This document shows positions 11,320-44,076 of a stretch of 47,451 nt of DNA, piece by piece. The stretch is taken from NCBI GenBank assembly GCA_049509675.1, contig JBEKZQ010000667.1, positions 1 through 47,451 of the forward strand, read 5' to 3'. The DNA is from Thermoguttaceae bacterium. GTDB lineage: Bacteria > Planctomycetota > Planctomycetia > Pirellulales > Thermoguttaceae. The notes beneath the pieces were generated by a model, which saw nothing but the letters and a program-made list of their open reading frames with translations, was not told the origin of the DNA and searched no databases. The position numbers were made by a program, and so were the translations under genes. Within the stretch, counting starts at the first letter, position 1. Every line of letters starts with the position of its first letter.

Positions 11320-12851
11320 CCACCGCCGAACGAGAAATCCGCATCATCCGCAAACCGGCCGAACTCCGCGCCGCCAAGGGCGACGACGGGGGCGACGTTT
11401 TTTCGGGCTACGTCTTCGAGTGGGACGCCCGCAGCGACGACCTGGGCGGCTTCGTCGAAACCATCAAGCGCGGGGCGGCCGCCAAGTGGCTGGCCAAACC
11501 GACGCGGAACCTCTTTGCCATCCTCGACCACAGCAAGGAGGTCCGCAATGTGCTGGGCGACATGGAGACCGGCACGCTGAAGCTCTTTGAGGACGATCGC
11601 GGGCTGGGTTTTGTGATCCACGCCGGCCCGACGACGGCCGCCAAGGATGCCGCGGTGGTCGTGGGCCGCAACCGCGTGGGCATGAGCTTCGCCTTCATCT
11701 GCGGCCGGCAGGACTGGACCACGCTGCCCGACGGCTCCCGCCTGCGGACCATCAGCGAATTCAAGGACCTGGACGACATCTCGATTGTCGTCGATGCCGC
11801 GTACAAGTCCTCCGACGTGACCGTGGCCAAGCGCTCGCTGGAGGAGGCGCTCGCCATCGAGAAGCGGACCGCCGCCGAAGCGGCGACCCAAAAAGTGGAA
11901 ACAGAAAAACGCGCGGCTGCCGACGCGGCCGCCCAAACCAAGAAGCAGAGGGAGATCGAAGACATGGAGAAGCGACCGAGCGTGGATTACCTGAAGCGGC
12001 AATTGGACCTGGCGGATCTGGAGGCCCGCTGCTATGGCAATTACCCCGAGCGCCGCGACGAAGAGCAGCCCAAGCACGGGCCGGACGCCGCCGAGGCCCA
12101 CCGGGCCACGCGGGAGACGCTCCGCGCCAAGGAGAATTCTGGCCTGCCCTCGCGGGCCCTGGAACTGAAGGCGGCCGCCGCGCACCAAAAAGCGGCCGAG
12201 TCGGCCAAGACCGAGGGCAAGACGGCCGCCGCCGATTTCCACACCAAGGCCGCCGCCATGCACGACGCGGCCGCCAGCGACCAGTACGCCGCCAATTTTT
12301 CCGATGCCATGCAGATGCGGGGCCGGGGACTGTCCCAACTTTCGTTCGACGAAAGTGGGACTGTCCCCTTCGGCCTCGAAACTCGAACCAACCAAGGAGA
12401 TGCGATGTCGTTGACCGAACAGATTGAAGCCCGTTTCAACCCCAACCATGACGACAAGGGCCGTTTCGACTCGGCCGAGGGCGCGAGCAAGGCCGCCGAG
12501 AAGGCCACGAAATCGGCCGAGAAGGCCAGCAAGCACGCCGCCGGATCCAAAAGCGCCTCGGCGCACGACCGGGCCGCCGACGCCCACGAGGCGGCGCACG
12601 ACGCGCACAAGGTGGCCGAGGCGCACCACAAGGCCCTGGCCGCCTACCACAAGGGCGCAGGACACGCCGACAAGGCCAAGGAGCACCTGGCCGCCGCCAA
12701 GATGCACGCCGCCAAGGCCGAGGCCCACCAGGCGGCCGAGGAAGGCCGCGCCTTCCCCAGGAACCCCTACGTCGAGCAGGCCGAATACGCCGACCCGGCC
12801 GGCGCCGGCACGGGCACGGCCGCGGCCGGCGAAGCCGCCGCCACGGCCTGA
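11316..12851 (+). CDS. Prohead protease, HK97 family (S78/U35), with a coiled-coil, His/Ala/Lys-rich scaffold-like C-terminal half
   Basis: N-terminal domain AILDHS...GMSFAF (His and Ser of HK97-type proteases). C-terminal half is helical and low-complexity. Position is right for a protease-scaffold gene. Confidence 0.85.
   Translation: MTTAEREIRIIRKPAELRAAKGDDGGDVFSGYVFEWDARSDDLGGFVETIKRGAAAKWLAKPTRNLFAILDHSKEVRNVLGDMETGTLKLFEDDRGLGFVIHAGPTTAAKDAAVVVGRNRVGMSFAFICGRQDWTTLPDGSRLRTISEFKDLDDISIVVDAAYKSSDVTVAKRSLEEALAIEKRTAAEAATQKVETEKRAAADAAAQTKKQREIEDMEKRPSVDYLKRQLDLADLEARCYGNYPERRDEEQPKHGPDAAEAHRATRETLRAKENSGLPSRALELKAAAAHQKAAESAKTEGKTAAADFHTKAAAMHDAAASDQYAANFSDAMQMRGRGLSQLSFDESGTVPFGLETRTNQGDAMSLTEQIEARFNPNHDDKGRFDSAEGASKAAEKATKSAEKASKHAAGSKSASAHDRAADAHEAAHDAHKVAEAHHKALAAYHKGAGHADKAKEHLAAAKMHAAKAEAHQAAEEGRAFPRNPYVEQAEYADPAGAGTGTAAAGEAAATA
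12325..12368. repeat. 44-bp palindromic element (variant A), in frame inside the protease gene
   Basis: ggggactgtcccaactttcgttcgacgaaagtgggactgtcccc, translated GLSQLSFDESGTVP. Related copies at 34407-34450 and 43857-43900. Confidence 0.9.
12405..12851 (+). CDS. Candidate nested in-frame scaffold protein (lambda C/Nu3-like arrangement)
   Basis: Internal ATG at 12405 preceded by AAGGAG (12394-12399), just after the palindromic element. Product MSLTEQIEARFNPNHDDKGRF... is helical and His/Ala/Lys-rich. Confidence 0.4.
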   Translation: MSLTEQIEARFNPNHDDKGRFDSAEGASKAAEKATKSAEKASKHAAGSKSASAHDRAADAHEAAHDAHKVAEAHHKALAAYHKGAGHADKAKEHLAAAKMHAAKAEAHQAAEEGRAFPRNPYVEQAEYADPAGAGTGTAAAGEAAATA

Positions 12852-12861
12852 AGGCCGTGGG

Positions 12862-13047
12862 GCCGCGTAGCGGCCATTGACGGTAGCCGTGGGTTTCAAC
12901 CCACGGTCCAAAAACCGGCCGATTTGTTCCGTCGCGCAGCGACGGCTGAATGACCGACGCCACCCCCGCGCCGAAACGGCGTCGCGCAGCGACGCCTGAT
13001 CCGTGGGTTGAAACCCACGGCTACCATCGGGCCATCGCTACGCGATT
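12862..13047. repeat. Composite REP/MITE-like element (inverted unit A' - small hairpins - unit A)
   Basis: 12862-12906 is the inverted variant of 13001-13047. Internal hairpins ccgtcgcgcagcgacgg and ggcgtcgcgcagcgacgcc. Same architecture at 41273-41462 and 42805-43022. Confidence 0.85.
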
Positions 13048-13091
13048 AACCCCCGCTGAAAACTGAAAACTGAAAACTGAAAACTACTCCG

Positions 13092-14069
13092 ATGTCCGAA
13101 CTTAACGTCCCCGGCCGCGTCCTGGTGCCTCGAAACCCCTTCCCCCACAACACCTACTGGCTCAACGCCGGCATCGTCGAGGCCTGGCAGAAAACCTGGT
13201 GCTTCGCCCGTGTGGGACGCGGCAACTGCATGATCTTCCGCCTGGAAATGGACGCCGCCGGCCAGGTGCACTCGCCCCATCCGCTCTTCGGCCTGTCCGA
13301 TCCGCATCTGAAGGCCGAGGACCCGCGGGCCATTTACGACCCGCTCCGCGATCGGATCGTGCTCTACTACGCCGGCATTCTGGGGCCGGGCCACTGCGCC
13401 ATCTTCCGCGCGGAGATCGACCAGGCCGGCAAAGTGCATGGCCGCGAGCAGCTTCGCTACCTGGACGACGGCCAGGGCGTCCGCGTCGTGCAGCGGGCCT
13501 TCGCCGTCGACGAGCAGAAGAACTGGGCCCCGTTCATCGCCGACGGCCGGGAACTTTGCATCTACCACCATGCGCCCTGGACCATTTTGGAGCGGACGTC
13601 CGAAGGCATGCGCCTGGCGCACAAAGGCCCTTCAATCTCCTGGGATTATGGCGAGATCCGCGGGGGCGCGCCGCCGGTGAAAGTTGGGGACGTCTTTTAT
13701 TCCATTTTTCATTCCGCCCGCTTCGACCGGGATCCCGACACCGGGAAAGAATCGAAGGTCTATTACGCCGGCTGCCTGGCCTTCACCGACGACTTTGGAT
13801 TGGCGGCGATCACCCCCGAGCCGATTTTGGCCGGCAACGTGGCCGAGGGCAACTGGCCCTGGACGGCCCCCGGCATCGGCGTGGCCGTCTCCGCCTGTTT
13901 CCCTTGTGGGGCGATCGTGCGGGGTGAGAATCTCTTGGTGAGCTATGGGTGGCTCGATCAGGAAGTCCGCCTGGCGGAGATCCCGATCGCCGAGCTGCGC
14001 GAGCGGATGGTTGAACCGGAGCCCGTGGCCCTGGGAGCGCGGAGGAGAATCGTAAAGCATGATGCGTGA
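13092..14069 (+). CDS. Beta-propeller glycosidase/glycoside-phosphorylase-like protein (GH130/DUF377-like, tentative)
   Basis: Motifs AEDPRAIYDP, EQKNWAPF, YGEIRGGAPPVKVGDVFYSIFHS, YYAGCLAFT, ENLLVSYGWLDQEVRLAEIPIAEL resemble the blade pattern of GH130/GH43-type propellers. By-eye call only. Confidence 0.45.
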   Translation: MSELNVPGRVLVPRNPFPHNTYWLNAGIVEAWQKTWCFARVGRGNCMIFRLEMDAAGQVHSPHPLFGLSDPHLKAEDPRAIYDPLRDRIVLYYAGILGPGHCAIFRAEIDQAGKVHGREQLRYLDDGQGVRVVQRAFAVDEQKNWAPFIADGRELCIYHHAPWTILERTSEGMRLAHKGPSISWDYGEIRGGAPPVKVGDVFYSIFHSARFDRDPDTGKESKVYYAGCLAFTDDFGLAAITPEPILAGNVAEGNWPWTAPGIGVAVSACFPCGAIVRGENLLVSYGWLDQEVRLAEIPIAELRERMVEPEPVALGARRRIVKHDA

Positions 14070-14115: not shown

Positions 14116-14129
14116 TTTTGGAGATCCCT

Positions 14130-14813: not shown

Positions 14814-15671
14814 ATGCCCGACTATCGACCAAGATCCGACAAGGCCGAATGGCACCTGACCCACCGCTGCGACCTGGCCTGCCCGAACTGCAATCGCGCC
14901 TGCTTCCTGCCGCCGCAAACGCCGGATATGAGCGTGGACGACGGGCGGGAATTCTGCCGGCAGGCGGCGGACCTCGACTACCGCCCCCGCATCATGCTGA
15001 TCGGCGGCGAGCCCACCTTGCACCCGGACTTTCTTGAGTTCGTGAAGCTGGCCTCGGCCTTCGCCGGCTCGGACCGCGTCGAAATCTGGTCCAACGGCTT
15101 TTCAGCGCAAGCGAAGGAGCTGCTCGCGCTGGTCCAGGACCATGGCCTGGCCATCGTCCAGTGGGGCACCGTCAAGCGTGGCAACGCCAGCCATCCGGTC
15201 CGGGACATCTTTATTGCCCCGGCCGACTTCGGCGAGACCCGCGAGCCGTGCGGCACGCATGCCTGCTTCGCCGATCCGGACTGCGGCATCAGCGTGGACT
15301 CGGGCGGCTATACCGTCTGCTGCATGGGCGGGGCGATCGACGGCATTCTGGGCCTTTCCGTGCGGACCCGGCGGCTGGCGGACCTCTGGGACCCGGAGTT
15401 CGCCGCGCGGCAGACCCGGGCGCTGTGCGACCATTGCGGCCAGCACCTGGGCATCCCGCCGCAAAAGCGCGCCGCCTGCCAGCGGATCCACGGCACGCTC
15501 ATGTCGCCCGCGTGGGCGCGTGAGAGCAGGAGGGCAATTGAGCAGGAAAGCAAAAGAACAGGAGAACAGGAGAACAGGAGAAACGCCGATCTTCCCCCAA
15601 AGCCGTGCTTCGCCTGCTCACCTGATCCCTTGCTCACCTGTTCCAGCATGGAGGCCCTGCCTCCATGCTGA
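14814..15671 (+). CDS. Radical SAM enzyme with a Cys-rich (SPASM/twitch-like) C-terminal region
   Basis: CX3CX2C in HRCDLACPNCNRAC, GGEPTLHPDF, then CGTHACFADPDCGISVDSGGYTVCCMGG...CDHCG. The last ~45 codons run through a CAGGAGA-family hairpin (15520-15645). Confidence 0.8.
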   Translation: MPDYRPRSDKAEWHLTHRCDLACPNCNRACFLPPQTPDMSVDDGREFCRQAADLDYRPRIMLIGGEPTLHPDFLEFVKLASAFAGSDRVEIWSNGFSAQAKELLALVQDHGLAIVQWGTVKRGNASHPVRDIFIAPADFGETREPCGTHACFADPDCGISVDSGGYTVCCMGGAIDGILGLSVRTRRLADLWDPEFAARQTRALCDHCGQHLGIPPQKRAACQRIHGTLMSPAWARESRRAIEQESKRTGEQENRRNADLPPKPCFACSPDPLLTCSSMEALPPC

Positions 15672-16020: not shown

Positions 16021-16048
16021 GGAACCACGAATCACACGGATAACACGA

Positions 16049-18682: not shown

Positions 18683-18768
18683 GGGATTAGGGATTAGCGA
18701 TTAGGGATTAGAGCCGCAGCGCGGCCGCGATTCCTTCTCCTAATCCCTAATCCCCACTCTCTAATCCC
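18683..18768. terminator. Inverted tandem-repeat hairpin, GGGATTA/TAATCCC family, directly after the capsid gene (possible attenuator/terminator; no U-tract)
   Basis: Left arm gggattagggattagcgattagggattag (18683-18711). Right arm ctcctaatccctaatccccactctctaatccc (18737-18768). Confidence 0.5.
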
Positions 18769-19728: not shown

Positions 19729-19791
19729 GCGTGGACCGTGGGGCGTGGGGCGTGGACCGATCGCCCCGCGGCCCACGCCCCACGGCCCACG
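19729..19791. repeat. Inverted tandem-repeat hairpin, GTGGGGC/GCCCCAC family
   Basis: gcgtggaccgtggggcgtggggcgtgg / cgccccgcggcccacgccccacggcccacg. Confidence 0.9.
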
Positions 19792-20150: not shown

Positions 20151-20223
20151 GGGATTAGGGATTAGGGATTAGTCGCAGGCGAGATTCCCCCCTCTAATCC
20201 CCAATCCCCAATCCCTAATTCCC
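20151..20223. repeat. Inverted tandem-repeat hairpin, GGGATTA/TAATCCC family
   Basis: gggattagggattagggattag / ctctaatccccaatccccaatccctaattccc, ending 6 nt before the ATG at 20230. Confidence 0.9.
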
Positions 20224-22455: not shown

Positions 22456-22527
22456 AGTTTTCAGTTTTCAGTGTTCAGCAAGACTGGGCATCGGAAGCTG
22501 AAAACTGAAAACTGAAAACTGAAAACT
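22456..22527. repeat. Inverted tandem-repeat hairpin, TTTTCAG/CTGAAAA family
   Basis: agttttcagttttcagtgttcag / ctgaaaactgaaaactgaaaactgaaaact. The left flank agcagtttgaag is shared with the copy at 36470. Confidence 0.9.
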
Positions 22528-32289: not shown

Positions 32290-32367
32290 GGGATTAGGGA
32301 TTAGGGATTGGGGATTAGTGCCGATGCGCGGCCGCCTCTAATCCCTAATCTGCTAATCCCTAATCCC
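32290..32367. repeat. Inverted tandem-repeat hairpin, GGGATTA/TAATCCC family
   Basis: gggattagggattagggattggggattag / ctctaatccctaatctgctaatccctaatccc. Confidence 0.9.
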
Positions 32368-33331: not shown

Positions 33332-33556
33332 ATGCTGGTACTCACGAGGAGACGAAACGAGGCGGTGCTGATGCGCGGGCCGCTGGGCGACCTGATCACG
33401 GTGCGCGTGCTGGACCTGGCCGACGGCCGAGTCCGGCTGGGGATCGACGCGGCCGACGACATCCAGATATGGAGGCCGGGGGCGAGGAACCAGAACAGGA
33501 GAGCAGTGGAGCAGGAGAGCAGGCGAGGGCCGGCCCTTGCCCTTGCCGAAAGCTGA
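33332..33556 (+). CDS. csrA: CsrA/RsmA-family RNA-binding regulator homologue
   Basis: MLVLTRRRNEAVLM..GDLITVRVLDLADGRVRLGIDAADDIQIWR parallels E. coli CsrA [50 protein letters not shown] lies 6 nt upstream of the ATG. Confidence 0.75.
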   Translation: MLVLTRRRNEAVLMRGPLGDLITVRVLDLADGRVRLGIDAADDIQIWRPGARNQNRRAVEQESRRGPALALAES

Positions 33557-34108: not shown

Positions 34109-34112
34109 ACAG

Positions 34113-34191
34113 GGGATTAGGGATTAGCAAATTAGGGATTGGGAGGAAGCCAGCGTCGGCACTAATCCCTAATCCCCAATCCCTAATCCCT
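34113..34191 (+). repeat. 79-bp exact direct repeat, copy 2
   Basis: Identical to 33235-33313. Together they bracket csrA and the 117-aa ORF. Confidence 0.9.
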
Positions 34192-34342
34192 AATCCCTCT
34201 TCTTTCGTAGAGCTACGGATATATAGTCCGTTGCTCTCGCGCGATTTTCCACCTTTCCAAATTCTCCAATTACACTGGAATGCCGGCCGTGGACAACTTC
34301 GCCGCGCGGCCTTTTTTCTGTCGATGCTCTACGAGGTACACC

Positions 34343-35698
34343 ATGAACATGCACGATCAGGAGCAATCGGCACGGAGGATTTGGAGTCGAGAGTCGGAGA
34401 GGGCAAAGGGGACAGTCCCAGTTTCGTCGAACGAAACTTGGGACAGTCCCCGCGAACTTTGGCCCGATGCGCGGCTGAGCGACGCCATCAACTGCTTCTT
34501 GGAGCGGCAGCGGCGGCGCGGCAACAAGCCGCGGACCATGGACGATTACCGCCATGCCCTGTGGGCCTACGTCCGCTACGCCGGCGGCGACTTTCCGGTA
34601 CGCGAGCTGAGGCGCGACGATCCGGTGAACTTCCTGGCCTGGCTGTCAGAGCAACGGATCGCGAACCACAAGCCGCACACGCTGCCCGCCGAATTTTCCA
34701 CGCCGGCCATCACACGGTTTTGCGATCCGAAGTCGGCCCCGGAGACCATGCCCGAGAAGGGGCTGCGCGAGGAGCACACGCTGGGGCACGTGATGCGGCA
34801 GGTCTTGCCGTTCTTCCGCTGGCTGCAGAGCCAGGGCGTGGGGCTGGACTGCGAGATCCCGTCCGACGAAAAGCCCTGCCTGGCCCTCCCCCCGCCGATC
34901 GCGCCGGAGCTCGAGGACGTCTTGGGCTGGTGGGTCCACGCGCTCACGGCCCCGGGCCTGGCGATGGTCGTCGCCGGCCGACCCGGCGGCGACGGCCCGC
35001 GTCTGCGGCCGATCGGCCGGGCGCTGCGCCGCCGGGCCGTGCTGACGCAAGCCTACTGCCTCTTGACCGGCATGCGGCTGGGCGAACTGCTGGCGGCCCG
35101 CCTGGTCGATTGCCAGGGGGCATGGCTCTTGATCCGCGAATCGAAAACCAACGCCCCCAGAATCATCTACCAGAACCCGCAGGCCCTGGGGATCGCGGCC
35201 GCATTGCGGCGGCCCGACTCGGGGCAACTGGAGTTGTTTTGCGATCCCGAGCCGGGGCCCTTGGATCGGGTCTGCGGCTGGGCGTACAGCGAGTGTTATT
35301 GGTGCGCCATCACGCGCGGGCTGGGGCTGCCTCAGAAGAAGCCGCACCAGGCCCTGCGAAGAGCCTGCTCGAACTGGATGCTCTCGCCAGGCGCCGTGCC
35401 GCCGGGCATCGACGGCATCGCCGCGCAGCTCCGCGCGATCGAGTCGGCGCAACTGGGGCATGGCGGCGGGGTGATCGAAAAGTTTTACATGGACGTGCTG
35501 ATGCGGATTCCGGCGGTGCTGGACCGCTTCCTCCTGCCGGACCTGCCGCCGCAACTTTGGATCTGGCCGGCGGCGATCGCGGCCGACTGCTCGCGCCCGG
35601 AACGGCTCTACGAGCAGTGGCGGCGGATCGTGGGCTCCGGCGGCGATCGCCGCGGGCGGCGGCGGGCGCGGCTGGCCGCGCGGGCCGGGGCCGAGTGA
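34343..35698 (+). CDS. int: Tyrosine recombinase / phage integrase (Int1)
   Basis: TGMRLGEL (Arg), ESKTN (Lys), HQALRRAC (His-x-x-Arg), LGHGGG (His), KFYMD (Tyr). N-terminal SAM-like LSDAINCFLERQRRRGNKPRTMDDYRHALWAYV. Confidence 0.85.
   Translation: MNMHDQEQSARRIWSRESERAKGTVPVSSNETWDSPRELWPDARLSDAINCFLERQRRRGNKPRTMDDYRHALWAYVRYAGGDFPVRELRRDDPVNFLAWLSEQRIANHKPHTLPAEFSTPAITRFCDPKSAPETMPEKGLREEHTLGHVMRQVLPFFRWLQSQGVGLDCEIPSDEKPCLALPPPIAPELEDVLGWWVHALTAPGLAMVVAGRPGGDGPRLRPIGRALRRRAVLTQAYCLLTGMRLGELLAARLVDCQGAWLLIRESKTNAPRIIYQNPQALGIAAALRRPDSGQLELFCDPEPGPLDRVCGWAYSECYWCAITRGLGLPQKKPHQALRRACSNWMLSPGAVPPGIDGIAAQLRAIESAQLGHGGGVIEKFYMDVLMRIPAVLDRFLLPDLPPQLWIWPAAIAADCSRPERLYEQWRRIVGSGGDRRGRRRARLAARAGAE
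34407..34450. repeat. 44-bp palindromic element (variant B), in frame in the integrase N-terminal tail
   Basis: ggggacagtcccagtttcgtcgaacgaaacttgggacagtcccc, translated GTVPVSSNETWDSP. Confidence 0.9.
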
Positions 35699-36683: not shown

Positions 36684-38018
36684 ATGGCGAAGAAACAAAT
36701 CGACCCGGGCCCACTGGAACACATCTGGCGGGGCTCGGAGGCCGACGAGGCGGCGGTCAGGCGTTACGCCGCCATCAAATTCTGCGAGCGCGTGGAAGTG
36801 CTCAATCGCCTGCTGCTGACCACCGAGGCGCGAAAGGCCCACCTCTCGGTGCTGCTGTGGCTGCACGCGGCGGACGCCATGTCGGTGCCGGTGGAGGTCG
36901 ACGCGGCCGCCATCGGCGACTCGGCCTCGGTCCGCCTGGGGCAGCGTGCGGTCCAGAGCGCGATCAAGTTCTGGGCCGACCTCGGCATCTTGATTTTGGA
37001 GCCGCGGTACGATAGGAATGGGAGACGCCTGCCTCGCTGCGCACGACTGGTCTGGGAGGCCGTTCTCGCAGTCGCGGGTCAAGCTGGCGCGGCCGTGCAT
37101 CAGCTTCCCAGCGCGGGGCAGATGGTAGCCGAGGACGAGGGCCGGCCGGCCGTGGCCGGCCCTCGTCATTTGGCCGGTCAAAGCGGGCGCGACTCGGCCC
37201 GCGCGGACCAGTATAACGGGCCGTTTGGGGCCGCCGAAGAGCAGTCGTTTTCGATGCCACCCGAAGGTGGAGACCTTGGCGCACAGCCGCCGGACCCTGG
37301 CGCACAAAATTTACCCGAACGAGGGGACATTGGCGCACCTGTGCGCCACCCTGGCGCACACGTGCGCCAGCCTGGCGCACCCACGTGCAACCTTTCCATC
37401 CGCAAGGGGGATACTGGCGCACAAAACGACCTGCTCCACGTGGCGCATGCCTGGAGATCGTGGACGCGCGTGCGCGCGGCCGCGCACGGTCTTCAGTCTG
37501 AAGAGTCTGAAGACGTCGTCGTCGACAGAGATCAGATCCGGAGAGCCCGGCGCACAGAAGTGCGGAATCTGGCCGCCGAGGCGGCCACAATCGTCCACAT
37601 GCGGCTCACCGATCCGCAGGTCCACCGCACGCTCACCGCCGATGCCCTCGCGGCCTTGCTGCTCTTCGATCGCGCGTGGCTGATCGAGTCGGCGCGAAAG
37701 GTCGGCGCGCAGATGCGCGGGGGCGACGTGCGGAAGCCTTTGGGCCTGTTGCAGGCCGTGCTGATGGAGGCCACCTGCGAGCGCGGCGGCATGGAGGCGA
37801 TCGCCGGCAGGGCCGAGTGGAAGAGCGCTTTCGCGCAGGTGATGACGCCGCTGGAACTGCACGCCGAGCGGCACTATCCGCCGCCGGCCTCTCCAGCGCC
37901 GCCATCTCCGCCGCCGGCCGAGCGGCCGGACACGCCGGAGGAAATCGCGGAGCTCAAGCGGGCGATCAAAGAACAGCGCGACCACCTGCGGCGGACCGCC
38001 GCGGCCAGGCCGCCGTAG
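36684..38018 (+). CDS. Putative replication initiator (lambda O-like organisation: iterons inside the gene)
   Basis: N-terminal winged-helix-like region. Central low-complexity segment encoded by the iteron cluster at 37277-37422. No helicase/primase motifs. Confidence 0.45.
   Translation: MAKKQIDPGPLEHIWRGSEADEAAVRRYAAIKFCERVEVLNRLLLTTEARKAHLSVLLWLHAADAMSVPVEVDAAAIGDSASVRLGQRAVQSAIKFWADLGILILEPRYDRNGRRLPRCARLVWEAVLAVAGQAGAAVHQLPSAGQMVAEDEGRPAVAGPRHLAGQSGRDSARADQYNGPFGAAEEQSFSMPPEGGDLGAQPPDPGAQNLPERGDIGAPVRHPGAHVRQPGAPTCNLSIRKGDTGAQNDLLHVAHAWRSWTRVRAAAHGLQSEESEDVVVDRDQIRRARRTEVRNLAAEAATIVHMRLTDPQVHRTLTADALAALLLFDRAWLIESARKVGAQMRGGDVRKPLGLLQAVLMEATCERGGMEAIAGRAEWKSAFAQVMTPLELHAERHYPPPASPAPPSPPPAERPDTPEEIAELKRAIKEQRDHLRRTAAARPP
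37277..37422. promoter_or_regulatory. Iteron cluster / candidate origin: 8 copies of TGGCGCAC (6 direct, 2 inverted)
   Basis: Direct copies start at 37277, 37298, 37331, 37352, 37373, 37415 (spacings 21, 33, 21, 21, 42 nt). Inverted GTGCGCCA at 37341 and 37362 create 18-bp palindromes. Confidence 0.6.
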
Positions 38019-38182
38019 CTAAGCAAGGTCGACGCAGGCCGGCGGGCTCGTAGCTCCGCCGGCCGACGCCCCGCGGATCGAAGCCGTCTCCGCGCCGCAT
38101 ACCCTGGCGGCGCGGGGACGGGGGGCGGGGCGGGGACAGAGCAGGTGATTTTTGAGCAGGTGAACAGGTGAAACGCAATGGG

Positions 38183-38227
38183 GCCGCGTAGCGGCCGTTG
38201 ATGATAGCCGTGGGTTTCAACCCACGG
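38183..38227 (-). repeat. REP/MITE-like unit A' (solo inverted copy)
   Basis: gccgcgtagcggccgttgatgatagccgtgggtttcaacccacgg. Confidence 0.85.
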
Positions 38228-39080: not shown

Positions 39081-41055
39081 GGTGGGCGGCGTGAAGCGTG
39101 GAGCGGGGACCGTGGATCGTGGGGCGACGAAAGGCGCGCCGCGAGCCGTCGGCACGGGAACGCAGACGCTGGGCGGCGCGCTGGCGGACCCGGACGCGGA
39201 CGGCACGCTCAGCGGCGCGGCGTGGCCGTCGATGGCCAAGGCCATGCGGACGGCCCTGGCCGAGAAGCTCACGAGGATCTACGACATGCCGGTGCCGTCG
39301 CACGTCGGCGCGTTCTGCGCCCAGGCGGTCGCGGCGATCGGCGCGGACGAAGCCCTCACCGCCGCGCAGGCCGCGCTGGCGATCCAGTACGTCCAGCAGT
39401 ACTTGCGGGAGGATCTCAGATCGGAAACTCCGGATCGCGAAACCAAAACTTTCTCCGCCCGCGCGCCCGACGCGAAGGCGGCTCGGGCCGCGGCGGCCGG
39501 ACTGCTGGAGGCCGCCGGCGAAGCCGGTGGCACGCACGCTGCGCCCGAGCGCGAGATCCCGCTGGCGGCGATCGCCGACAGCCCCTACCAGCTCCGCGAG
39601 GCCGGCGACGCGGAGCCGGACGAGGACCTGCAGGGCCTGCGCGACACGCTCCTGAGCCACGGCCTGCTGCAGGCGGTGGTCGTGCGGCCGATCGGCGACC
39701 CGAGCCGCGGCCGCTACGAACTGCTGGCCGGGCACCGCCGCTGCGCCGCCGCCAGGCTGGCCGGCTGGACCGCCATCCGGGCCCGCATCGTGGAGGCCGA
39801 CGACGGCCAGGCCGAGGAGATCGTGGTGATCGAGAACCTGCTGCGGAAGGACCTCTCGGCCATCGAGGAGGCCCGCGGCTTCCGCGCGATCCTCAGCCGG
39901 CCCGGCGCGCCGACCCAGGAGGCTCTGGCGGCCAGGCTGGGGCTCAGCCAGGGCCACATCAGCAACCGCCTGCGATTGTTGCGGCTGCCGAAGCCGTTCC
40001 AGGAGGCGGTCATTTCGGGCGAAATATCGGCCTTCCAGGCCCGCGACCTGGTGCGCGTGGCCGACATGCCGGCGGTGGTCGAGGAGATCCTCGATCGCCA
40101 CAAGGACATGAAAAAATGGCATCCGGGCAGCACCGTCGCCGACGTCCTGAGCCTGGAAGAGGGCGGCATCAATGACTACATCGACGATGGCACGCGGCCC
40201 ATGGGCGGGACGGTGTACATCACCGAAATCGGCAGAGCGTGCCCCATTTTCGCGCCGACGGAAGAGCAGCGGCAGAAGCTCGACATCCGCGAGTTCCCCG
40301 CCGGCCGCGGCAGCAAGAAGACCGAGGAGCGGGCCTGCAACGTGAAGCTCTGGGACGAGCTGCAGGAGGCGCACCGCGCCGCCCTGATCGCCCGCCGCAA
40401 GCAGCGGCAGGACGGCGCCGGCAAGGCCGGCGGCGCCCCGGGCAATGGCCGGCCGCTCACCGCCGCGGAGCAGAAGCAGGCGGCCGCGGATGAAAAGGCC
40501 CGCAAGGCCAAGACCCGCGAGCAGCTCGCCCGCCGCCGCAAGTCGCTGCTGGTGCAGCGGCTCAAGCACCTGGTCGCGGGCCGCGTGCTGGACCCGGCCA
40601 CGACGGACGAGGAACTGATCGAACTGCTTTCGATTGCGGCCCTCAAGGGCTGGGCCGAAGGCTACAAGGCCCGCGACGTCGATAAAGCGCTCACGAGGCT
40701 CAAGGGCGCTTCCGTCCGCGAACGGGCGCAGCGCCTGCTGGCCGAGTGCTTTTGGAACTCGCACGATGGCCGGCCGGCGGAAATCGTGTGGGAGAACTCC
40801 GGCCAGGTCCAAAGGGTCGCGCGGATTTTGGGCCTGGATCCGGTGGCCGCCTGGAAGGCGGACCAGCTCGGGCCGCTCACGGCCGCCTGGTGGGGCGCGC
40901 ACGAGAAGAGCGAACTGGCGGCCATCGCGCAGACCAGGGGGCTCTGTGTGAGCCCCGATACGAAGAAGTCGGCCCTCATAAGCTGGCTCTCAGCCCGATC
41001 GCTCCCGCCGCCGCCGGGGCTGGCCCTGGGCAAGAAAGGCGATCGCCGATGCTGA
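39034..41055 (+). CDS. parB: ParB/Spo0J-family protein (ParB N-terminal domain + HTH), long C-terminal extension
   Basis: LLQAVVVRPIGD...YELLAGHRRCAAARLAGW (GxRR box), VIENLLRKDLSAIEEA, HTH TQEALAARLGLSQGHISNRLRLLRLP. Start supported by synonymous-only divergence of the shared leader. Confidence 0.8.
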   Translation: MKSRSVFRKRPLPAAEVGGVKRGAGTVDRGATKGAPRAVGTGTQTLGGALADPDADGTLSGAAWPSMAKAMRTALAEKLTRIYDMPVPSHVGAFCAQAVAAIGADEALTAAQAALAIQYVQQYLREDLRSETPDRETKTFSARAPDAKAARAAAAGLLEAAGEAGGTHAAPEREIPLAAIADSPYQLREAGDAEPDEDLQGLRDTLLSHGLLQAVVVRPIGDPSRGRYELLAGHRRCAAARLAGWTAIRARIVEADDGQAEEIVVIENLLRKDLSAIEEARGFRAILSRPGAPTQEALAARLGLSQGHISNRLRLLRLPKPFQEAVISGEISAFQARDLVRVADMPAVVEEILDRHKDMKKWHPGSTVADVLSLEEGGINDYIDDGTRPMGGTVYITEIGRACPIFAPTEEQRQKLDIREFPAGRGSKKTEERACNVKLWDELQEAHRAALIARRKQRQDGAGKAGGAPGNGRPLTAAEQKQAAADEKARKAKTREQLARRRKSLLVQRLKHLVAGRVLDPATTDEELIELLSIAALKGWAEGYKARDVDKALTRLKGASVRERAQRLLAECFWNSHDGRPAEIVWENSGQVQRVARILGLDPVAAWKADQLGPLTAAWWGAHEKSELAAIAQTRGLCVSPDTKKSALISWLSARSLPPPPGLALGKKGDRRC

Positions 41056-41291
41056 CCATCCACCAGGAAGCTGCGCTGCGCTGGCTGCTCTCGCCATGCA
41101 GGGAGCATGGCGGCACCGTCGGCCGGCGGCTGGCGCGCTACATGCCACATCACGCGACGACTGAGGGAGCGATGAATTTTCGCGAGGCATGGGAGGCGCT
41201 CATGGCGCTGGCCGAGGAGCACCGCGAGGAAATCCTTTTCGGCCGGGAGTTCGCCGTAGGCCAGGCGGTCTGGCCGCGTAGCGGCCGTTGA
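41049..41291 (+). CDS. Hypothetical protein (80 aa)
   Basis: ATG overlaps the parB stop (ATGCTGA). The C-terminus runs into REP unit A'. Confidence 0.4.
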   Translation: MLTIHQEAALRWLLSPCREHGGTVGRRLARYMPHHATTEGAMNFREAWEALMALAEEHREEILFGREFAVGQAVWPRSGR

Positions 41292-41462
41292 TGGTAGCCG
41301 TGGGTTTGAATCCCACGGGCCGGGCGCGACGCGCCCCGGCGCCGCATTCCGTCGCGTCGCGACGGCCGGACATCAGGCGTCGCTACGCGACGCATCATCG
41401 CGCGCGGCGCGTCCACCGTGGGTTGAAGCCCACGGCTACCGGCGGGCCATCGCTACGCGATT
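41273..41462. repeat. Composite REP/MITE-like element upstream of Int2
   Basis: A' 41273-41318, internal hairpins (ccgtcgcgtcgcgacgg, gcgtcgctacgcgacgc), A 41416-41462. Followed by the 10-bp-stem hairpin gagaaccggattgatagtccggttctc. Confidence 0.85.
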
Positions 41463-41567
41463 TCGGGCCGAAAGCGGGCCTGCCGAGAACCGGATTGATA
41501 GTCCGGTTCTCAGCGGGGCCTTTTCCAGCGCATAATTCCCTGGGGCTCTATCACGGGGAAAATCATC

Positions 41568-42797
41568 ATGCGGATCGCATTTTGGAAGCGAGAGGAAGAG
41601 ACAGATCACCACGAACCACACGAATCACGCGAATCGGGCGCGGCACTGGCCGGGCCGGCGGCGCCGGACAGTACCAATATAATTTCAGCGCCCAACTGCG
41701 CACAAAGCCAGGCGGGCCGTCGGCTGTCGGAGGTTGTGACCCAGTTCTTGGCCCGGCTGGCGGAACTGGGTCGGTCGCCGCGGACCATCAGCGATTACCG
41801 CAGCGCGCTCTGGCTGCTCTTCGAGCATCTCGGTGCGGACCCGGCCATCGAGGCGCTACCCAAAAACCTGCCGACGCGATTCACGGCCTGGCTGCGCAGT
41901 ACTGCGGCGGCGCCGTGGCAGCCGGGGACGCTGCCCGGGGGCTTCGCGCCGGCGGAGGTGGCCCGCTTCCTGGAGACGCCCTCGACGCCGCAGACGCGGC
42001 GCAAGGGGGGCAAACGCGAGCCGCACACGATTGGGCACCAGTTGCGGGGCTGCATGCCCGTATTCAAGCTGCTGGGGCTGGATTGCGAGATCCCCCAAAA
42101 AATCGCGCCTAACCTGGCGTTGCCGCCGGCCGCGGTCCCGGACCGGCACCAGATCGGCCAATGGTGGACGACCGTGCTGTGGAGCAGCCGGTCGACCGTG
42201 GCCGCCGGCCTGCGCCGTCGCGTAGTCCTGGCCCAGGCGATCGTGGTGCTGGTCGGGCTGCGCCTGGGCGAACTGTTGCGGGCCCGGGCCGGCGACGTGG
42301 AAGGAAACTGGCTGCTCGTGCGGCAGAGCAAGACCAACCGCCCGCGGATCGTCTATCTATGCCCGGCGGCACTAGGCCTGGTCCGGGCCTTGCACGAGCC
42401 GGCCGCCGACGAACGCGATTTGCTTGCCGGCAGGCGGCTTTTCGCGGAGCGGTTGATCGGCTGGCCGTTCTCGCGCTCGGCCTGGCTGGACTTGGTCCGC
42501 GAATCCGGGTTGCGGGAAAAGCGCCCGCACCAGGCCATGCGGCAATACTGCTGCACCCGGCTCTTCAATATCAATCCCACGGCCGAGGCGACGCAGCTCG
42601 GCCACGGGATCGGCGTCGTGCCCAAGTATTACCTGGACGTGCTGCGGTTACTGCCGGACATCATGCGCGACTGGCATTGGCCGGCGATCACCATGCGGGC
42701 CAAGGGACGGCGGTTCGCGTGGCCGGAGCGCATCGCGGCCGGCGACGAGCATCCCCGGCGGCTGTACCGGGAATTTAGGCGGATCGTGATGGCGTGA
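41568..42797 (+). CDS. Tyrosine recombinase (Int2), paralogue of Int1
   Basis: VGLRLGELL, QSKTN, HQAMRQYC, LGHGIG, KYYLD. Shares LDCEIP...LALPP and the SAM-like RTISDYRSALWLLFEHLG with Int1. Confidence 0.8.
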   Translation: MRIAFWKREEETDHHEPHESRESGAALAGPAAPDSTNIISAPNCAQSQAGRRLSEVVTQFLARLAELGRSPRTISDYRSALWLLFEHLGADPAIEALPKNLPTRFTAWLRSTAAAPWQPGTLPGGFAPAEVARFLETPSTPQTRRKGGKREPHTIGHQLRGCMPVFKLLGLDCEIPQKIAPNLALPPAAVPDRHQIGQWWTTVLWSSRSTVAAGLRRRVVLAQAIVVLVGLRLGELLRARAGDVEGNWLLVRQSKTNRPRIVYLCPAALGLVRALHEPAADERDLLAGRRLFAERLIGWPFSRSAWLDLVRESGLREKRPHQAMRQYCCTRLFNINPTAEATQLGHGIGVVPKYYLDVLRLLPDIMRDWHWPAITMRAKGRRFAWPERIAAGDEHPRRLYREFRRIVMA

Positions 42798-42804
42798 CGC
42801 ATTG

Positions 42805-43022
42805 GCCGCGTAGCGGCCGCTGATGGTAGCCGTGGGTTTCAACCCACGGAACGGGCGCATCCCATGCCGCATTCCGGCCGCGTAGCGACGATTGACGGTC
42901 AGGCGTCGCTACGCGACGCATCATCGCACGCGGGCTGGAGACCGTGGGTTGAAACCCACGGCTACCATCGGGCCATCGCTACGCGATTCCGGGGCCGACC
43001 ATCGGGCAATCGCTACGCGATT
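42805..43022. repeat. Composite REP/MITE-like element downstream of Int2
   Basis: A' 42805-42849, internal gcgtcgctacgcgacgc hairpin, A 42942-42988, plus a partial third unit 42997-43022. Confidence 0.85.
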
Positions 43023-43137
43023 TTGGGCCTTCTGGCGCGGTCGGGTTGTATCGATTAGCAACTTCAAAAAAGACGTGCGCGCCCTTTTTTTGCTATCGCG
43101 CACCGATCGCGAAGAGTTTGCCGTCACATGGCGACGG

Positions 43138-44076
43138 TTATGCCGCGGCTGACGACGCCAGCCGAGCATGGAGCCTTGCCTCAAGCTCGCGCTGCTCTTC
43201 GATGGGCAGCCGGCTGATGACGCGATCCAGACGCACTAGCCGCGGTTGTACAGGCTTGTCTTTCCTGGGGCGCAAGGCGGTCACCTGATCGGCGATCGCC
43301 TTGGCAGTCAGATGCCGCTCGAGGATTTGCCGCATCAGCCCCCTGGCCAGATCGCCGAGACCCGGGCGGACGTCCCATTGCTCCGTCACCGGATCGCGCT
43401 TCACGAGCGGGCAAAGCGCGCGAACCGTGGAAAGCGGCAGGAGCTCCACGGTATCGGCCCCCAAGAGTCGCGCGACCCAATAACAGGCGATTACGCGATT
43501 GACCCGCGCTGCCTCGCCGGTGATGCCCAGGTCGGCCAGGGCCTTTCTGAGTTGCTGGACGGCCGCCGGCCGATCGGGCTGCTGTGAGACCCACTGCCAG
43601 GCCAGGCAGCCCAGCCGCAACGCGCGGCGGGTGGCCTGGCAATCGTACTTGGTCCACTCGCCGAGGACCTCCTCGATCGTCAGTTGCCGCGGCTCGCGGG
43701 TTTTGGCCAGGGCCTCGGCCAGCGTGGCGCGGGACTGGGGGACAGTGGGGCGTGGGGCGTGGGGCGTGGGGCGTGAAGACGCCCCACGGTCCACGACCGC
43801 CTCGCGAATCACGGCGGCAGCCGGCGGGGTGTCGGTCGCGCCGGCTGCGGCGGCAAGGGGGACAGTCCCAGTTTCGTTGAACGAAACTTGGGACAGTCCC
43901 CGGCACTCCCGCGCCGCCGCGGCGGCAGTTGTGGCGCCTGCGGCCGCGGTCGGCACAGTGGGGCCGGGCATGACGGCCGGACCGGGTGGGAGTGGAGGCT
44001 GTGGATCGGTGGGCGCGGCGACCGGAAAACCATGCCGGAACAGGATATTGTGGATCGACTCGATCGACTCGATCAT
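43138..44076 (-). CDS. Hypothetical protein; the N-terminal third contains two in-frame repeat elements, so the true start is uncertain
   Basis: C-terminal ~200 aa look globular (LTIEEVLGEWTKYDCQATRRALRLGCLAWQW...). The 44-bp palindrome and a GTGGGGC hairpin (43744-43797) lie in frame. Confidence 0.45.
   Translation of the reverse strand: MIESIESIHNILFRHGFPVAAPTDPQPPLPPGPAVMPGPTVPTAAAGATTAAAAARECRGLSQVSFNETGTVPLAAAAGATDTPPAAAVIREAVVDRGASSRPTPHAPRPTVPQSRATLAEALAKTREPRQLTIEEVLGEWTKYDCQATRRALRLGCLAWQWVSQQPDRPAAVQQLRKALADLGITGEAARVNRVIACYWVARLLGADTVELLPLSTVRALCPLVKRDPVTEQWDVRPGLGDLARGLMRQILERHLTAKAIADQVTALRPRKDKPVQPRLVRLDRVISRLPIEEQRELEARLHARLASSAAA
43857..43900. repeat. 44-bp palindromic element (variant B'), in frame in ORF 43138-44076
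   Basis: ggggacagtcccagtttcgttgaacgaaacttgggacagtcccc. One substitution relative to 34407-34450. Confidence 0.9.

What the first reader, a model, noticed from the sequence alone, without database searches (positions are those of the whole stretch)
12325..43900. 44-bp palindromic element inserted in frame in three unrelated ORFs (RPE-like behaviour)
ggggac[a/t]gtccca(g/a)(t/c)tttcgt(c/t)gaacgaaa(c/g)ttgggac[a/t]gtcccc occurs at 12325-12368 (protease linker, read as GLSQLSFDESGTVP). It also occurs at 34407-34450 (integrase N-terminal tail, read as GTVPVSSNETWDSP) and at 43857-43900 (ORF 43138-44076, minus strand, read as GLSQVSFNETGTVP). All three keep the host ORF open. Other hairpin repeats do the same: 9010-9035 in the portal, 10698-10776 in the MuF-like gene, 15520-15645 in the radical SAM gene, 43744-43797, and 46815-46908 (where one arm encodes the peptidase signal-like helix LLFAILLF). 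In-frame colonisation of coding regions by palindromic repeats is known from Rickettsia palindromic elements, but I am not aware of it in a phage.
Basis: partly seen in the sequence, partly recalled or inferred. Interest (0 to 1): 0.65.

Follow-up and report, generated by a model that had tools for sequence, protein, structure and literature searches.

The report
Host palindromic repeat inside phage genes
A 46-base hairpin-forming repeat that is scattered through Planctomycetota genomes also sits, in frame and without stop codons, inside at least two (probably three) genes of this peat-bog phage, showing that the "selfish DNA inside protein-coding genes" known from Rickettsia also occurs in free-living bacteria and their phages.

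Summary
**Observation: confirmed.** Three copies exist, at 12325-12370, 34406-34451 and 43856-43901.

**Structure.** Each copy folds into a ~19-bp hairpin of -32 kcal/mol. The stem pairs that are free to vary change in a compensating way.

**Interpretation: supported.**
- Copy 1 is extra sequence in the linker of a prohead-protease/scaffold-like fusion. Six homologues are continuous there.
- Copy 2 lies between a conserved integrase N-terminus with a conserved ribosome-binding site and ATG, and a conserved motif. No other in-frame start exists, so it must be translated.
- Copy 3 is probably coding but has no homologues.

**The family.**
- The element is not phage-specific. It is an abundant dispersed repeat of peat metagenomes and Planctomycetota genomes.
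- 23 of 107 evaluable metagenomic copies are in frame inside genes, including genes resembling PurL, ThiE, UvrD and MiaB.
- Two filled/empty locus pairs show clean 60- and 66-nt insertions.
- Related subfamilies sit inside terminase, portal and Mu-transposase genes of other viral contigs.

**Best reading.** A REP/MITE-like mobile hairpin that survives in ORFs because it lacks stop codons and lands in linkers. The enzyme that moves it is unknown. I judge it a new variant of a known kind.

The parts
12325..12370 (+). Element copy 1 ('T' orientation on the + strand): G-GGGACTGTCCC-AAC-TTTCG-TTCGA-CGAAA-GT-GGGACTGTCCC-CTT. Read as GLSQLSFDESGTVPF in the protease/scaffold-like ORF.
   Evidence: Folds at -32.2 kcal/mol, z -4.6. 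Borders set by unrelated contigs that match only 12321/25-12370/77.
34406..34451 (-). Element copy 2 ('T' orientation on the - strand; the + strand, the sense strand of the integrase, reads GGGGACAGTCCC...). Translated as KGTVPVSSNETWDSP.
   Evidence: Borders at 34406 and 34451/52, where depth rises to ~860-1730.
43856..43901 (-). Element copy 3 ('T' orientation on the - strand, which is the sense strand of ORF 43138-44076). Read as GLSQVSFNETGTVPL. It differs from copy 2 by 1 nt within the 44-nt core.
11316..12851 (+). Host gene of copy 1: S78 prohead protease (aa 16-178) fused to a long Ala/Lys/His-rich C-terminal part that I infer to be scaffold-like. The element lies in the linker just before the conserved R-x-NP-x-HD-x-x-G-x-F motif.
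   Evidence: Pfam. Alignment A1 with P0003, P0010, P0005, P0002, P0004 and P0011. GC3 phase is identical on both sides. Called as one 511-aa gene in two independent contigs.
12394..12407 (+). AAGGAG (12394-12399), 5 nt, then ATG (12405) in the frame of the protease ORF, 24 nt after the element. Possible internal start for a separately made C-terminal protein, as in lambda C/Nu3. This is an inference.
   Evidence: Read directly from the sequence. Homologues have no Met at this point.
34343..35698 (+). Host gene of copy 2: tyrosine-recombinase-like integrase. I place the start at ATG 34343 (MNMHDQEQSARR...). The database call of 386 aa starting at 34538 is too short.
   Evidence: Alignment A2. 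The same GAGGT-N5-ATG is present in L128, which lacks the element. Database call: P0021.
43138..44076 (-). Probable host gene of copy 3. ATG 44076 has GGAGG 5 nt upstream. A short N-terminal peptide is followed by a Pro/Ala-rich stretch that carries the element and a (GCGTGGG)n hairpin (43744-43797), then a C-terminal domain with a clear coding signal. GTG 43794 is an alternative start that would exclude the element.
   Evidence: Called as 312 aa in a 37-kb contig and as 218 aa in a 1.6-kb contig (P0038). No homologues.
10699..10775 (+). A different hairpin, with arms built of AGCAGGTG-type octamers, inserted in frame in the MuF-like ORF 9981-11054. It adds 23 residues (DGAGEQVRQQPVNCSPAQNSPAL) relative to two homologues.
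   Evidence: Alignment A5. Coding phase kept on both sides, no codon periodicity inside. Almost confined to the phage's own copies in peat runs.

Best explanation
The element belongs to a large family of small, non-autonomous palindromic repeats (REP/REPIN- or MITE-like) that live in Planctomycetota genomes. The phage acquired copies while replicating or residing in such a host.

**Architecture (shown).** The unit has two identical 11-mers, GGGACWGTCCC, around a short variable hairpin. It folds into one long hairpin with a conserved W.W mismatch and one bulged base.

**How it spreads (partly shown).** Insertion of new copies is shown by filled and empty sites. How they are made is inferred: the conserved end modules and the preserved pairing suggest an enzyme that recognises the folded or symmetric ends. 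A DDE-type transposase would fit the 6-nt direct repeat at one site. A HuH-Y1 enzyme of the kind reported in Planctomycetes is another candidate.

**Why copies persist inside genes (shown and inferred).** Copies survive in ORFs when three conditions hold:
1. The element has no stop codon in almost any frame (shown).
2. The net insertion is a multiple of three (shown: 60 and 66 nt).
3. It lands in a linker or loop, where 14-22 extra Gly/Ser/Thr/Pro/Val-rich residues are harmless (shown for linkers, inferred for harmlessness).

**In this phage.**
- Copies 1 and 2 are translated as part of the protease/scaffold-like fusion and the integrase. This rests on sequence logic, not on protein data.
- Copy 3 is probably translated too.
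- A secondary, weaker idea: copy 1 together with the AAGGAG-ATG just behind it now marks an internal start for the C-terminal protein.
For: **A dispersed repeat**
- In four peat runs, contig depth jumps from ~2-10 to ~10-1900 (350-1900 in two of them) only across the element. 62 and 76 contigs were laid in two of the runs, most of them matching only the element and carrying unrelated flanks.
- More than 120 loci turned up in species-representative genomes, many of them Planctomycetaceae, Pirellulales or Thermoguttaceae.
- None of those genome loci encodes relatives of the phage proteins.

**Insertion polymorphism**
- L142 against L137: a 60-nt insertion flanked by TTGATA/TTGATG.
- L282 against L243: a clean 66-nt insertion in a homologous gene.
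- L169 against L147: an intergenic insertion.
- L137 and L142 carry copies at different sites of the same gene.
- The related phages L125, L126 and L127 and the integrase relative L128 have no copy.

**In-frame copies**
- The window copies.
- Host genes resembling PurL, ThiE, UbiE, UvrD, AcrB and MiaB.
- 23 of 107 evaluable metagenomic copies.
- TerL, portal, MuA-like, ligase and AAA genes in other viral contigs.

**The hairpin is maintained**
- All three stem pairs left free by the search pattern show compensating changes (CG 18 / UA 12; UA 28 / GC 3 / CG 1; AU 29 / GC 1).
- 99.5% of cells are paired, and 0 of 500 shuffles reach the observed covariation.
- The W.W identity is kept in 39 of 43 copies.

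**No stop codons:**

**The phage's copies form their own rare subtype.** They carry G-C or C-G at the N3-M1 pair, as does L052 from a Planctomycetia MAG.
Against: - No transposase or other mobilising gene was found in the window or next to host copies.
- A target-site duplication is seen at one gamma-subfamily site only. Across 126 alpha copies the signal is very weak.
- The end modules, and the whole design, are conserved across distant phyla. In-ORF copies show an orientation bias of 17:6. Both are also what a functional element bound by a conserved host factor would show.
- The three phage copies lie at positions that could be regulatory: before an internal ribosome-binding site, and near the 5' ends of two genes.
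- Translation of the inserts is inferred, not observed. No RNA runs were available and there are no protein data.
Confidence: 0.62

Rival explanations
1. The element is a functional cis-module used by a conserved host factor, and the phage copies are kept because they are useful. It could act in RNA as a processing, stabilising or weak terminator hairpin. It could act in DNA as two GGGACWGTCCC dyads three helical turns apart. One possible use is uncoupling protease and C-terminal protein expression at copy 1, or tuning integrase expression.
For: - Compensating changes keep the hairpin, and the mismatch and bulge are conserved.
- The end modules and the overall design are shared by alpha, beta and gamma subfamilies from different phyla.
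- Some relatives in other phyla look like two-way terminators, with A-runs and T-runs on either side.
- Copy 1 sits 24 nt before an AAGGAG-ATG. L001 has a copy 13 nt before a gene start.
- In-ORF copies are biased 17:6 in orientation.
Against: - The element occurs in both orientations relative to genes, and at unrelated positions inside housekeeping enzymes.
- It is absent from orthologous sites in relatives that apparently work without it.
- A strong terminator or cleavage site inside PurL, UvrD or TerL would be harmful.
- No Rfam family matches.
Confidence: 0.22
2. The elements are not coding at all. The ORFs are over-extended in a high-G+C genome, and the real starts or stops leave the elements between genes.
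For: - At 66% G+C, long chance ORFs are common.
- The codon-position signal drops across each element.
- The database gene call for the integrase starts after the element (P0021).
- One gene call for the third ORF also excludes it (P0038).
- Most host copies are intergenic.
Against: - Copy 1: there is no stop between a Pfam-confirmed protease domain and 12851. Homologues are continuous fusions aligned on both sides.
- Copy 2: conserved residues lie on both sides, the ribosome-binding site and ATG are conserved, and no alternative in-frame start exists.
- This reading remains possible only for copy 3. I put it at about one chance in three for that copy alone.
Confidence: 0.04
3. The copies are operators or centromere-like sites for a phage-encoded DNA-binding protein, such as the ParB-like protein (39112-41055) or a repressor. 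They would be dispersed over the genome as in phage N15.
For: - The phage encodes a ParB_N plus HTH_ParB protein and HTH proteins.
- The central arms GTTTC/GAAAC recall parS half-sites (my own knowledge).
- There are three dispersed palindromic copies.
Against: - The same element is a high-copy repeat of host genomes that carry no relative of this phage.
- The parS-like base is exactly the one that varies with compensation (G, C or T).
- The related phages L125 and L126 (about 21.9 and 12.6 kb read) and L127 (about 21 kb read), which share the head-gene order, have no GGGACWGTCCC. Whether they encode a ParB-like protein was not checked.
Confidence: 0.03
4. The inserts are skipped during translation by ribosome hopping between the two GGGAC repeats, as in T4 gene 60 or the byp elements of yeast mitochondria, so they never appear in the protein.
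For: A stable hairpin flanked by identical GGG-starting repeats resembles take-off and landing sites (my own knowledge of gene 60).
Against: - The reading frame is continuous through every verified copy.
- The net insertions are multiples of three (60 and 66 nt; same phase on both sides).
- There is no stop codon at the would-be take-off site.
- A 31-nt hop would break the frame.
Confidence: 0.02

Closest known systems
Rickettsia palindromic elements (RPE; Ogata et al. 2000, from my own knowledge; also discussed in PMC3733652)
   Same: - A palindromic dispersed repeat found both between genes and in frame inside unrelated, functional-looking ORFs.
- Adds a short peptide in tolerant regions.
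- Introduces no stop codons.
   Different: - RPEs are about 100-150 bp, A+T-rich and confined to Rickettsia. This unit is 46 nt (up to ~70), G+C-rich and shares no sequence with them.
- It occurs in free-living Planctomycetota, with relatives in other phyla, and in phage genomes.
REP / REPIN elements with RAYT (TnpA-REP) transposases (PMC3116915, PMC3733652, PMC6006769)
   Same: - Imperfect palindromes of 20-65 nt, in tens to hundreds of copies.
- Two palindromic cores joined into one long hairpin, with a basal stem, a bulge and a second stem.
- A short conserved tag on one side only (here CYT, read as ARG on the other strand).
- Mostly extragenic, with a minority inside ORFs. PMC3733652 reports intragenic REPs in several species.
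   Different: - There is no GTAG or CGTC tag.
- The cores have a single central base, so they cannot fold on their own.
- The two cores are direct rather than inverted with respect to W, which gives a conserved mismatch.
- No RAYT gene was found nearby.
- About 21% of copies are intragenic, which seems high for REPs.
Bacterial MITEs, including MITEs shared by viruses and hosts (PMC11602168)
   Same: - Non-autonomous, with an inverted-repeat design and presence/absence polymorphism.
- One site has a 6-nt flanking direct repeat.
- The same element occurs in a phage and in its presumed host group, which can be used to link them.
   Different: - The unit is shorter than the 70-300 bp that PMC3733652 gives for bacterial MITEs.
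- No parent insertion sequence with the same ends was found.
- PMC11602168 describes MITEs as mainly intergenic. My term search of its text found no mention of coding regions or in-frame or intragenic copies.
High-copy hairpins around class 3 HuH-Y1 genes of Planctomycetes and Acidobacteria (Quentin et al. 2018, PMC6006769)
   Same: - Same phylum.
- High-copy atypical secondary structures with a tetranucleotide foot.
- Proposed to be handled as single-stranded DNA.
   Different: - That paper describes a 5' CnGA foot.
- Its supplementary tables contain nothing like GGGACWGTCCC pairs.
- A link to this element is untested.
Integron attC sites (my own knowledge)
   Same: Recognised by shape rather than sequence: a hairpin with an unpaired central position, an extrahelical base that marks the strand, and a loop of variable length.
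   Different: - There is no R/L box sequence and no integron integrase or cassette context.
- This is a resemblance in how it might work, not membership.

Membership tests
RPE-like behaviour (palindromic repeat inserted in frame in ORFs) | Copies lie inside ORFs whose homologues lack them, with the reading frame kept | tested here: met
   - Protease fusion and integrase.
- Filled/empty gene pairs of 60 and 66 nt.
- UvrD-like and MiaB-like proteins compared with solved structures.
RPE-like behaviour (palindromic repeat inserted in frame in ORFs) | The same repeat also occurs between genes and in many unrelated genes | tested here: met
   Of the evaluable metagenomic copies, 21% are in-frame intragenic and the rest are not.
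Rickettsia RPE families proper | Length of about 100-150 bp and Rickettsia RPE consensus sequences | tested here: not met
   - The unit is 46 nt.
- The organisms are Planctomycetota and their phages.
- No sequence comparison with RPE consensus sequences was possible here.
REP / REPIN | Short imperfect palindrome in high copy number, able to form a long hairpin from two cores | tested here: met
REP / REPIN | GTAG (or CGTC) tetranucleotide at the foot of the hairpin | tested here: not met
   - The flanks of 132 copies show G on one side and C-Y-T on the other.
- CGTC occurs only in the loop of some copies.
REP / REPIN | An associated RAYT (TnpA-REP, PF01797) gene in the genome, often flanked by the repeats | not testable with these tools
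   - Only 8-kb pieces around hits could be read.
- No such gene was found among the 20 window and L086 proteins scanned.
MITE | Terminal inverted repeats | tested here: met
   The whole unit is an inverted repeat, and the ends GGGGAC / GTCCCC are invariant.
MITE | Target-site duplication | tested here: inconclusive
   - One gamma-subfamily site is flanked by TTGATA/TTGATG.
- Across 126 alpha copies, flank matching is barely above shuffles: 1.71 against 1.38 of 5 positions.
MITE | A parent insertion sequence with the same ends and a transposase | not tested
   - No systematic search was possible.
- The two copies in L086 flank ordinary genes, including a sigma-54 activator.
Known RNA families (Rfam 15) | A match at the gathering score | tested here: not met
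   - Nothing reached the gathering score in the window.
- Only generic hairpin (miRNA-precursor) matches far below threshold appeared at the element.

The most novel reading that the evidence does not exclude
The element is one branch of a previously undescribed superfamily of shape-recognised mobile hairpins.
- It would be defined by paired GGGGAC-W-GTCCCC modules around a freely varying stem, spanning Planctomycetota, Nitrospirota and other phyla together with their phages.
- It would have adapted to living inside protein-coding genes: free of stop codons in nearly all frames, and coding for loop-friendly peptides.
- In this phage it may have been put to use, splitting a protease/scaffold-like fusion into two translation units.
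- Its mobilising enzyme would be new or newly assigned, for example the class 3 HuH-Y1 proteins of Planctomycetes.
Probability: 0.3. Interest if true: 0.78.

Novelty: new variant of a known kind. Interest (0 to 1): 0.62.

Why it matters
1. **Scope of the phenomenon.** Gene-invading palindromic repeats, the classic 'selfish DNA in protein-coding genes' of Rickettsia, are not an oddity of reduced intracellular genomes. Here they occur in large free-living Planctomycetota genomes and in essential phage genes (terminase, portal, protease, integrase, Mu transposase).
2. **Host prediction.** The repeat gives a sequence-based link between an uncultured peat phage and its host group.
3. **Annotation.** Gene callers are misled by it. 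The integrase start in the database call lies 195 nt (65 codons) downstream of the start inferred here, and one ORF is called two ways.
4. **Mechanism.** End modules conserved across phyla, combined with a freely covarying stem, a fixed mismatch and a fixed bulge, point to an unknown structure-specific enzyme worth finding.
5. **Protein evolution.** The inserts are natural experiments showing where phage and bacterial proteins tolerate 14-22 extra residues.

Tried and rejected
- An exact 45-letter pattern found nothing. It was my typing error (one base too many), not absence.
- **Known RNAs.** Rfam at gathering threshold and tRNA scans found nothing. A permissive Rfam scan of the element gave only generic hairpin hits, so I dropped the hammerhead or other ribozyme ideas.
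- **parS or operator for the phage ParB-like protein.** Rejected, because the element is a host-wide repeat and the parS-like base covaries freely.
- **GTAG/CGTC REP classes of PMC3733652.** The tags do not fit.
- **Class 3 HuH hairpins of PMC6006769.** Its supplement holds no similar sequence.
- **Literature search for the 11-mer itself.** Only unrelated primers and eukaryotic sequences.
- **Missing DNA.** ENA contigs of the closest protease and integrase homologues (P0002, P0022, P0023) have no DNA on file.
- **Empty-site alleles of this phage.** All other assemblies of it are 99.995-100% identical to the window, with no indels, and peat contigs show no skipping joint at the element.
- **RNA runs.** None listed.
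- **Transposase between the two copies in L086.** Ordinary genes only.
- **Energy scan for hairpins.** Uninformative at 66% G+C.
- **Neighbours of the GGGACWGTCCC arrays in other phyla.** No common gene stood out by eye, and I did not pursue it.
- **Cross-phylum hits.** Part of this signal may be ascertainment. Any hairpin with this near-palindromic 11-mer in one arm automatically carries it in the other, so I rely only on the alpha, beta and gamma subfamilies, which share the whole design.

Full report
**What is there**

The window is a 66% G+C phage genome. Its two ends are identical (1-122 = 47330-47451). It encodes TerS, TerL, portal, a MuF-like protein, an S78 prohead protease fusion, a capsid protein, two tyrosine-recombinase-like proteins and a ParB-like protein.

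The 11-mer GGGACWGTCCC occurs exactly six times, as three pairs 31 nt apart. The palindrome between them occurs only at those three places, with 0.00 matches expected by chance.

Each copy folds on either strand into one hairpin of about 19 bp (-32 to -33 kcal/mol, z -4.6 to -6.7). The hairpin has a W.W mismatch, one bulged base and a 3-nt loop. Copy 1 is inverted relative to copies 2 and 3. It also differs from them by a G-C to C-G swap of one stem pair.

**Are the copies really inside genes?**

High G+C makes long chance ORFs common. In addition, the element has no stop codon in 17 of the 18 frame readings of the three copies. An 'open frame' therefore proves little, and I used homologues instead.

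*Copy 1.*
- The ORF 11316-12851 has an S78 protease domain at residues 16-178. There is no stop until 12851.
- The codon-position G+C signal is in the same phase before and after the element, and vanishes only across 12320-12440.
- Six homologues (P0003, P0010, P0005, P0002, P0004, P0011) are continuous fusions. They align on both sides, from AAASD-YAADF to R-NP-HD-DG-F.
- The window has about 27 extra residues exactly where the element lies.
- An AAGGAG sits 5 nt before an in-frame ATG (12405), right behind the insert. This suggests, but does not show, a nested start as in lambda C/Nu3.

*Copy 2.*
- Six homologues all begin at a conserved M-x-x-Q-x-QEQSARR. In the window this corresponds to MNMHDQEQSARR, starting at ATG 34343.
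- They all share ELWPDARLSDA further on. The element lies in the linker of variable length between the two.
- The ribosome-binding site and start (GAGGT-N5-ATG) are conserved at DNA level in L128, a relative without the element.
- There is no in-frame ATG, GTG or TTG between the element and the conserved motif. Any integrase carrying that motif must therefore be translated through the element.
- The database call of 386 aa (P0021) is too short.

*Copy 3.*
- The minus-strand ORF 43138-44076 has a good GGAGG-N5-ATG. Its clear coding signal starts only below about 43750.
- It has no homologues.
- It is called as 312 aa in one contig and as 218 aa in a short one.
- I rate it probably coding, about two chances in three.

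**What the element is**

It is not a phage feature.
- In four peat metagenome runs, contig depth rises from about 2-10 to about 10-1900 (350-1900 in two of them) exactly over the element. Sixty-two and 76 contigs were laid in two of the runs, most of them matching only positions 12321/25 to 12370/77 and carrying unrelated flanks. Copy 2 gives the same picture.
The full design recurs in many Planctomycetaceae, Pirellulales, Thermoguttaceae and Planctomycetia MAGs: GGGGACWGTCCC, one bulged base, a stem of the ATTTTCG / CGAAAAT type with a loop or further hairpin of variable length, then GGGACWGTCCCC.
- None of those genome loci encodes a relative of any phage protein.
- A metagenome scan gave 132 more copies. 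Their flanks define an asymmetric unit: G on one side (127 of 131) and C-Y-T on the other (127 and 126 of 130).
- The three stem pairs not fixed by my search pattern all show compensating changes. 99.5% of cells are paired, and none of 500 shuffles reaches the observed covariation.
- The two W letters of a unit are the same in 39 of 43 copies. The mismatch in the hairpin is therefore conserved.

**It behaves as an insertion, and often in frame**

- Most host copies are intergenic. Several, however, lie in frame inside genes whose translated sequences I read as PurL-, ThiE-, UbiE-, UvrD-, AcrB- and MiaB-like.
- Against solved structures, the UvrD-like protein has a longer loop at that point. 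The MiaB-like protein has about 40 extra residues there.
- Of 107 evaluable metagenomic copies, 23 (21%) have an open frame with coding periodicity in the same phase on both sides.
- An all-against-all search for empty sites found three pairs:
  - L142 against L137 (90% identical flanks): a 60-nt insertion flanked by TTGATA/TTGATG. L137 carries its own copy about 80 nt away in the same gene.
  - L282 against L243: a clean 66-nt insertion in a homologous gene.
  - L169 against L147: an insertion between a stop codon and the next ribosome-binding site.
- The related phages L125, L126 and L127, which share the head-gene order, have no copy.

**Other phages**

The general pattern hits 67 stretches of viral contigs. 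These fall into three related subfamilies.

In the lower-G+C contigs, chance ORFs are short. There the elements lie inside ORFs of 1.4-2.4 kb. Pfam identifies these ORFs as follows:
- a Mu-type portal;
- a large terminase, with the element between the N and C domains;
- a gpA-type terminase, with the element inside the ATPase domain;
- MuA-like transposases;
- an NAD-dependent ligase;
- an AAA protein.

In-frame colonisation of phage genes is therefore general, not peculiar to this window.

These belong to different families. Their arms are tandem 7-mers or 8-mers: GGGATTA, CTGAAAA, GCGTGGG and AGCAGGTG.
- Of the 22 two-armed examples, 16 are intergenic, 4 overlap gene 3' ends and 2 are inside genes.
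- The one at 10699-10775 is a clean 23-residue in-frame insertion in the MuF-like protein, relative to L126 and L127.
- The one in the radical SAM gene extends the C-terminal tail.
- The one at about 9000-9044 lies in the variable Gly-rich linker behind the portal domain.
- The one at 46815-46908 straddles a probable gene start, and its right arm encodes a signal-peptide-like stretch.

**How it most likely works**

*Shown:*
- it is a dispersed repeat;
- it is present or absent at equivalent sites in related sequences;
- its hairpin is maintained;
- it is free of stop codons;
- it sits in linkers, with net lengths that are multiples of three.

*Inferred:*
- It is a non-autonomous mobile element. 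Its conserved ends and folded shape are recognised by an enzyme encoded elsewhere in the host genome.
- The phage picked up copies from its host. Only copies that kept the frame in tolerant linkers survived.
- The enzyme is unknown. One flanking 6-nt repeat favours a DDE-type insertion. The one-sided tag, the bulge and the mismatch recall REPs handled by HuH-Y1 enzymes.
- PMC6006769 reports an unexplained class 3 of such enzymes, mainly in Planctomycetes, with high-copy hairpins. I could not connect the two.

*Main rival:* the hairpin is a functional module for a conserved host factor, and the phage has put it to use. I cannot exclude this and give it about 0.2.

**Comparison with what is known**

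- It works like Rickettsia RPEs, and like the intragenic REPs listed in PMC3733652.
- It resembles REPINs in design and MITEs in its insertion polymorphism. It fails the defining tag of REPs. It has no known parent element.
- MITEs shared between phages and hosts are known but rare (PMC11602168). My term search of that paper found no mention of coding regions or of in-frame or intragenic copies.
- I found no description of this family, within the limits of the library.
- My verdict is a new variant of a known kind.

**Limits**

- Translation of the inserts is deduced, not observed.
- Copy 3 is unresolved.
- Copy number per genome could not be measured.
- Part of the cross-phylum signal for the bare 11-mer pair may be ascertainment.

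Noticed in passing
window, e.g. 1857-1927, 7569-7649, 18683-18768, 19729-19785, 20151-20223, 22458-22525, 32290-32367, 34112-34197: Most gaps between genes carry a hairpin whose two arms are tandem 7-mers or 8-mers: (GGGATTA)n, (CTGAAAA)n, (GCGTGGG)n or (AGCAGGTG)n. I found 22 two-armed examples, 16 of them strictly intergenic. The G-rich arms (GGGATTA x4, GGGGCGT x4) also fit a G-quadruplex pattern.
   Followed up: partly
window 34155-34217: The (TAATCCC)n arm has a contig depth of 2000-5400 in peat runs, against about 9 for its flanks. This telomere-like heptamer repeat is therefore also a very abundant repeat of the community. Some contigs join it directly to a GGGACWGTCCC element (joints 34190-34197 to 34405-34408).
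   Followed up: partly
window 12851-13054, 38172-38227, 41262-41469, 42794-43029, 1-126: A repeat of about 200 nt with internal inverted symmetry, holding GGCCGCGTAGCGGCC and ATCGCTACGCGAT motifs (GCGTAGCG on both strands) and a CCGTGGGTTTCAACCCACGG hairpin. It follows the protease gene, the gene ending at 38018, the 41049-41291 gene that follows the ParB-like gene, and the second recombinase gene. It could be a GTAG-type REP cluster or a set of recombination or partition sites.
   Followed up: no
window 8800-8933 vs 46404-46537, and 9000-9044 vs 46329-46373: A 134-nt piece of the portal gene (98% identical) and a nearby 45-nt piece (93%) are repeated in inverted orientation near the other end of the genome. 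If that region is transcribed on the + strand, the RNA would be antisense to the portal mRNA.
   Followed up: no
window 1-122 and 47330-47451: The two ends of the window are identical, which indicates a circular or terminally redundant genome of about 47.3 kb. The same phage, 99.995-100% identical, was assembled from several peat samples (L129-L132).
   Followed up: yes
window 33332-33556: The phage encodes a CsrA-family protein (precomputed Pfam PF02599). It lies in a region dense with hairpins, and its 3' end overlaps an AGCAGGTG-type repeat arm.
   Followed up: no
homologues P0002, P0008, P0009, P0013 of window 11316-12851: Several homologous prohead-protease fusions carry a ferritin-like domain (PF00210) in their C-terminal part. 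This suggests that some relatives package a ferritin-like cargo.
   Followed up: no
window about 9045-9085 (portal C-terminal part), 12420-12460 (after the element), and L127 portal C-terminus: A short motif R-F-N-x-N-H-D-x-x-G-x-F recurs in the portal extension (RFNANHDPANGQF), at the start of the C-terminal part of the protease fusion (RFNPNHDDKGRF) and in L127 (RFNANHDERGLF). It may be a head-targeting or cleavage signal.
   Followed up: no
L042 6350-6472, L075 3907-4108, L038 879-1029, L024 6756-6808, L080 10-94: In Acidobacteriota, Kiritimatiellia, Conexibacter, Coriobacteriaceae and Omnitrophota MAGs, GGGGACWGTCCCC occurs as tandem arrays with periods of 21-39 bp. In Bacillus it flanks an AACGCGTT-containing spacer. 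In a Saccharibacteria MAG (L014) copies lie inside a glycosyltransferase-like ORF. Their relation to the Planctomycetota element is unclear.
   Followed up: partly
window 46815-46908: An AGCAGGTG-type hairpin straddles a probable gene start. The left arm carries AGGTGA-like ribosome-binding sequences, and the right arm encodes GLLFAILLFC of a signal-peptide-like N-terminus.
   Followed up: partly
window 13092-14069: The ORF after the protease gene is not the capsid gene. It is a GH130-like protein, conserved in the related phages together with two methyltransferases, a radical SAM protein and a LexA-type HTH protein. All of these sit between the protease and capsid genes.
   Followed up: partly
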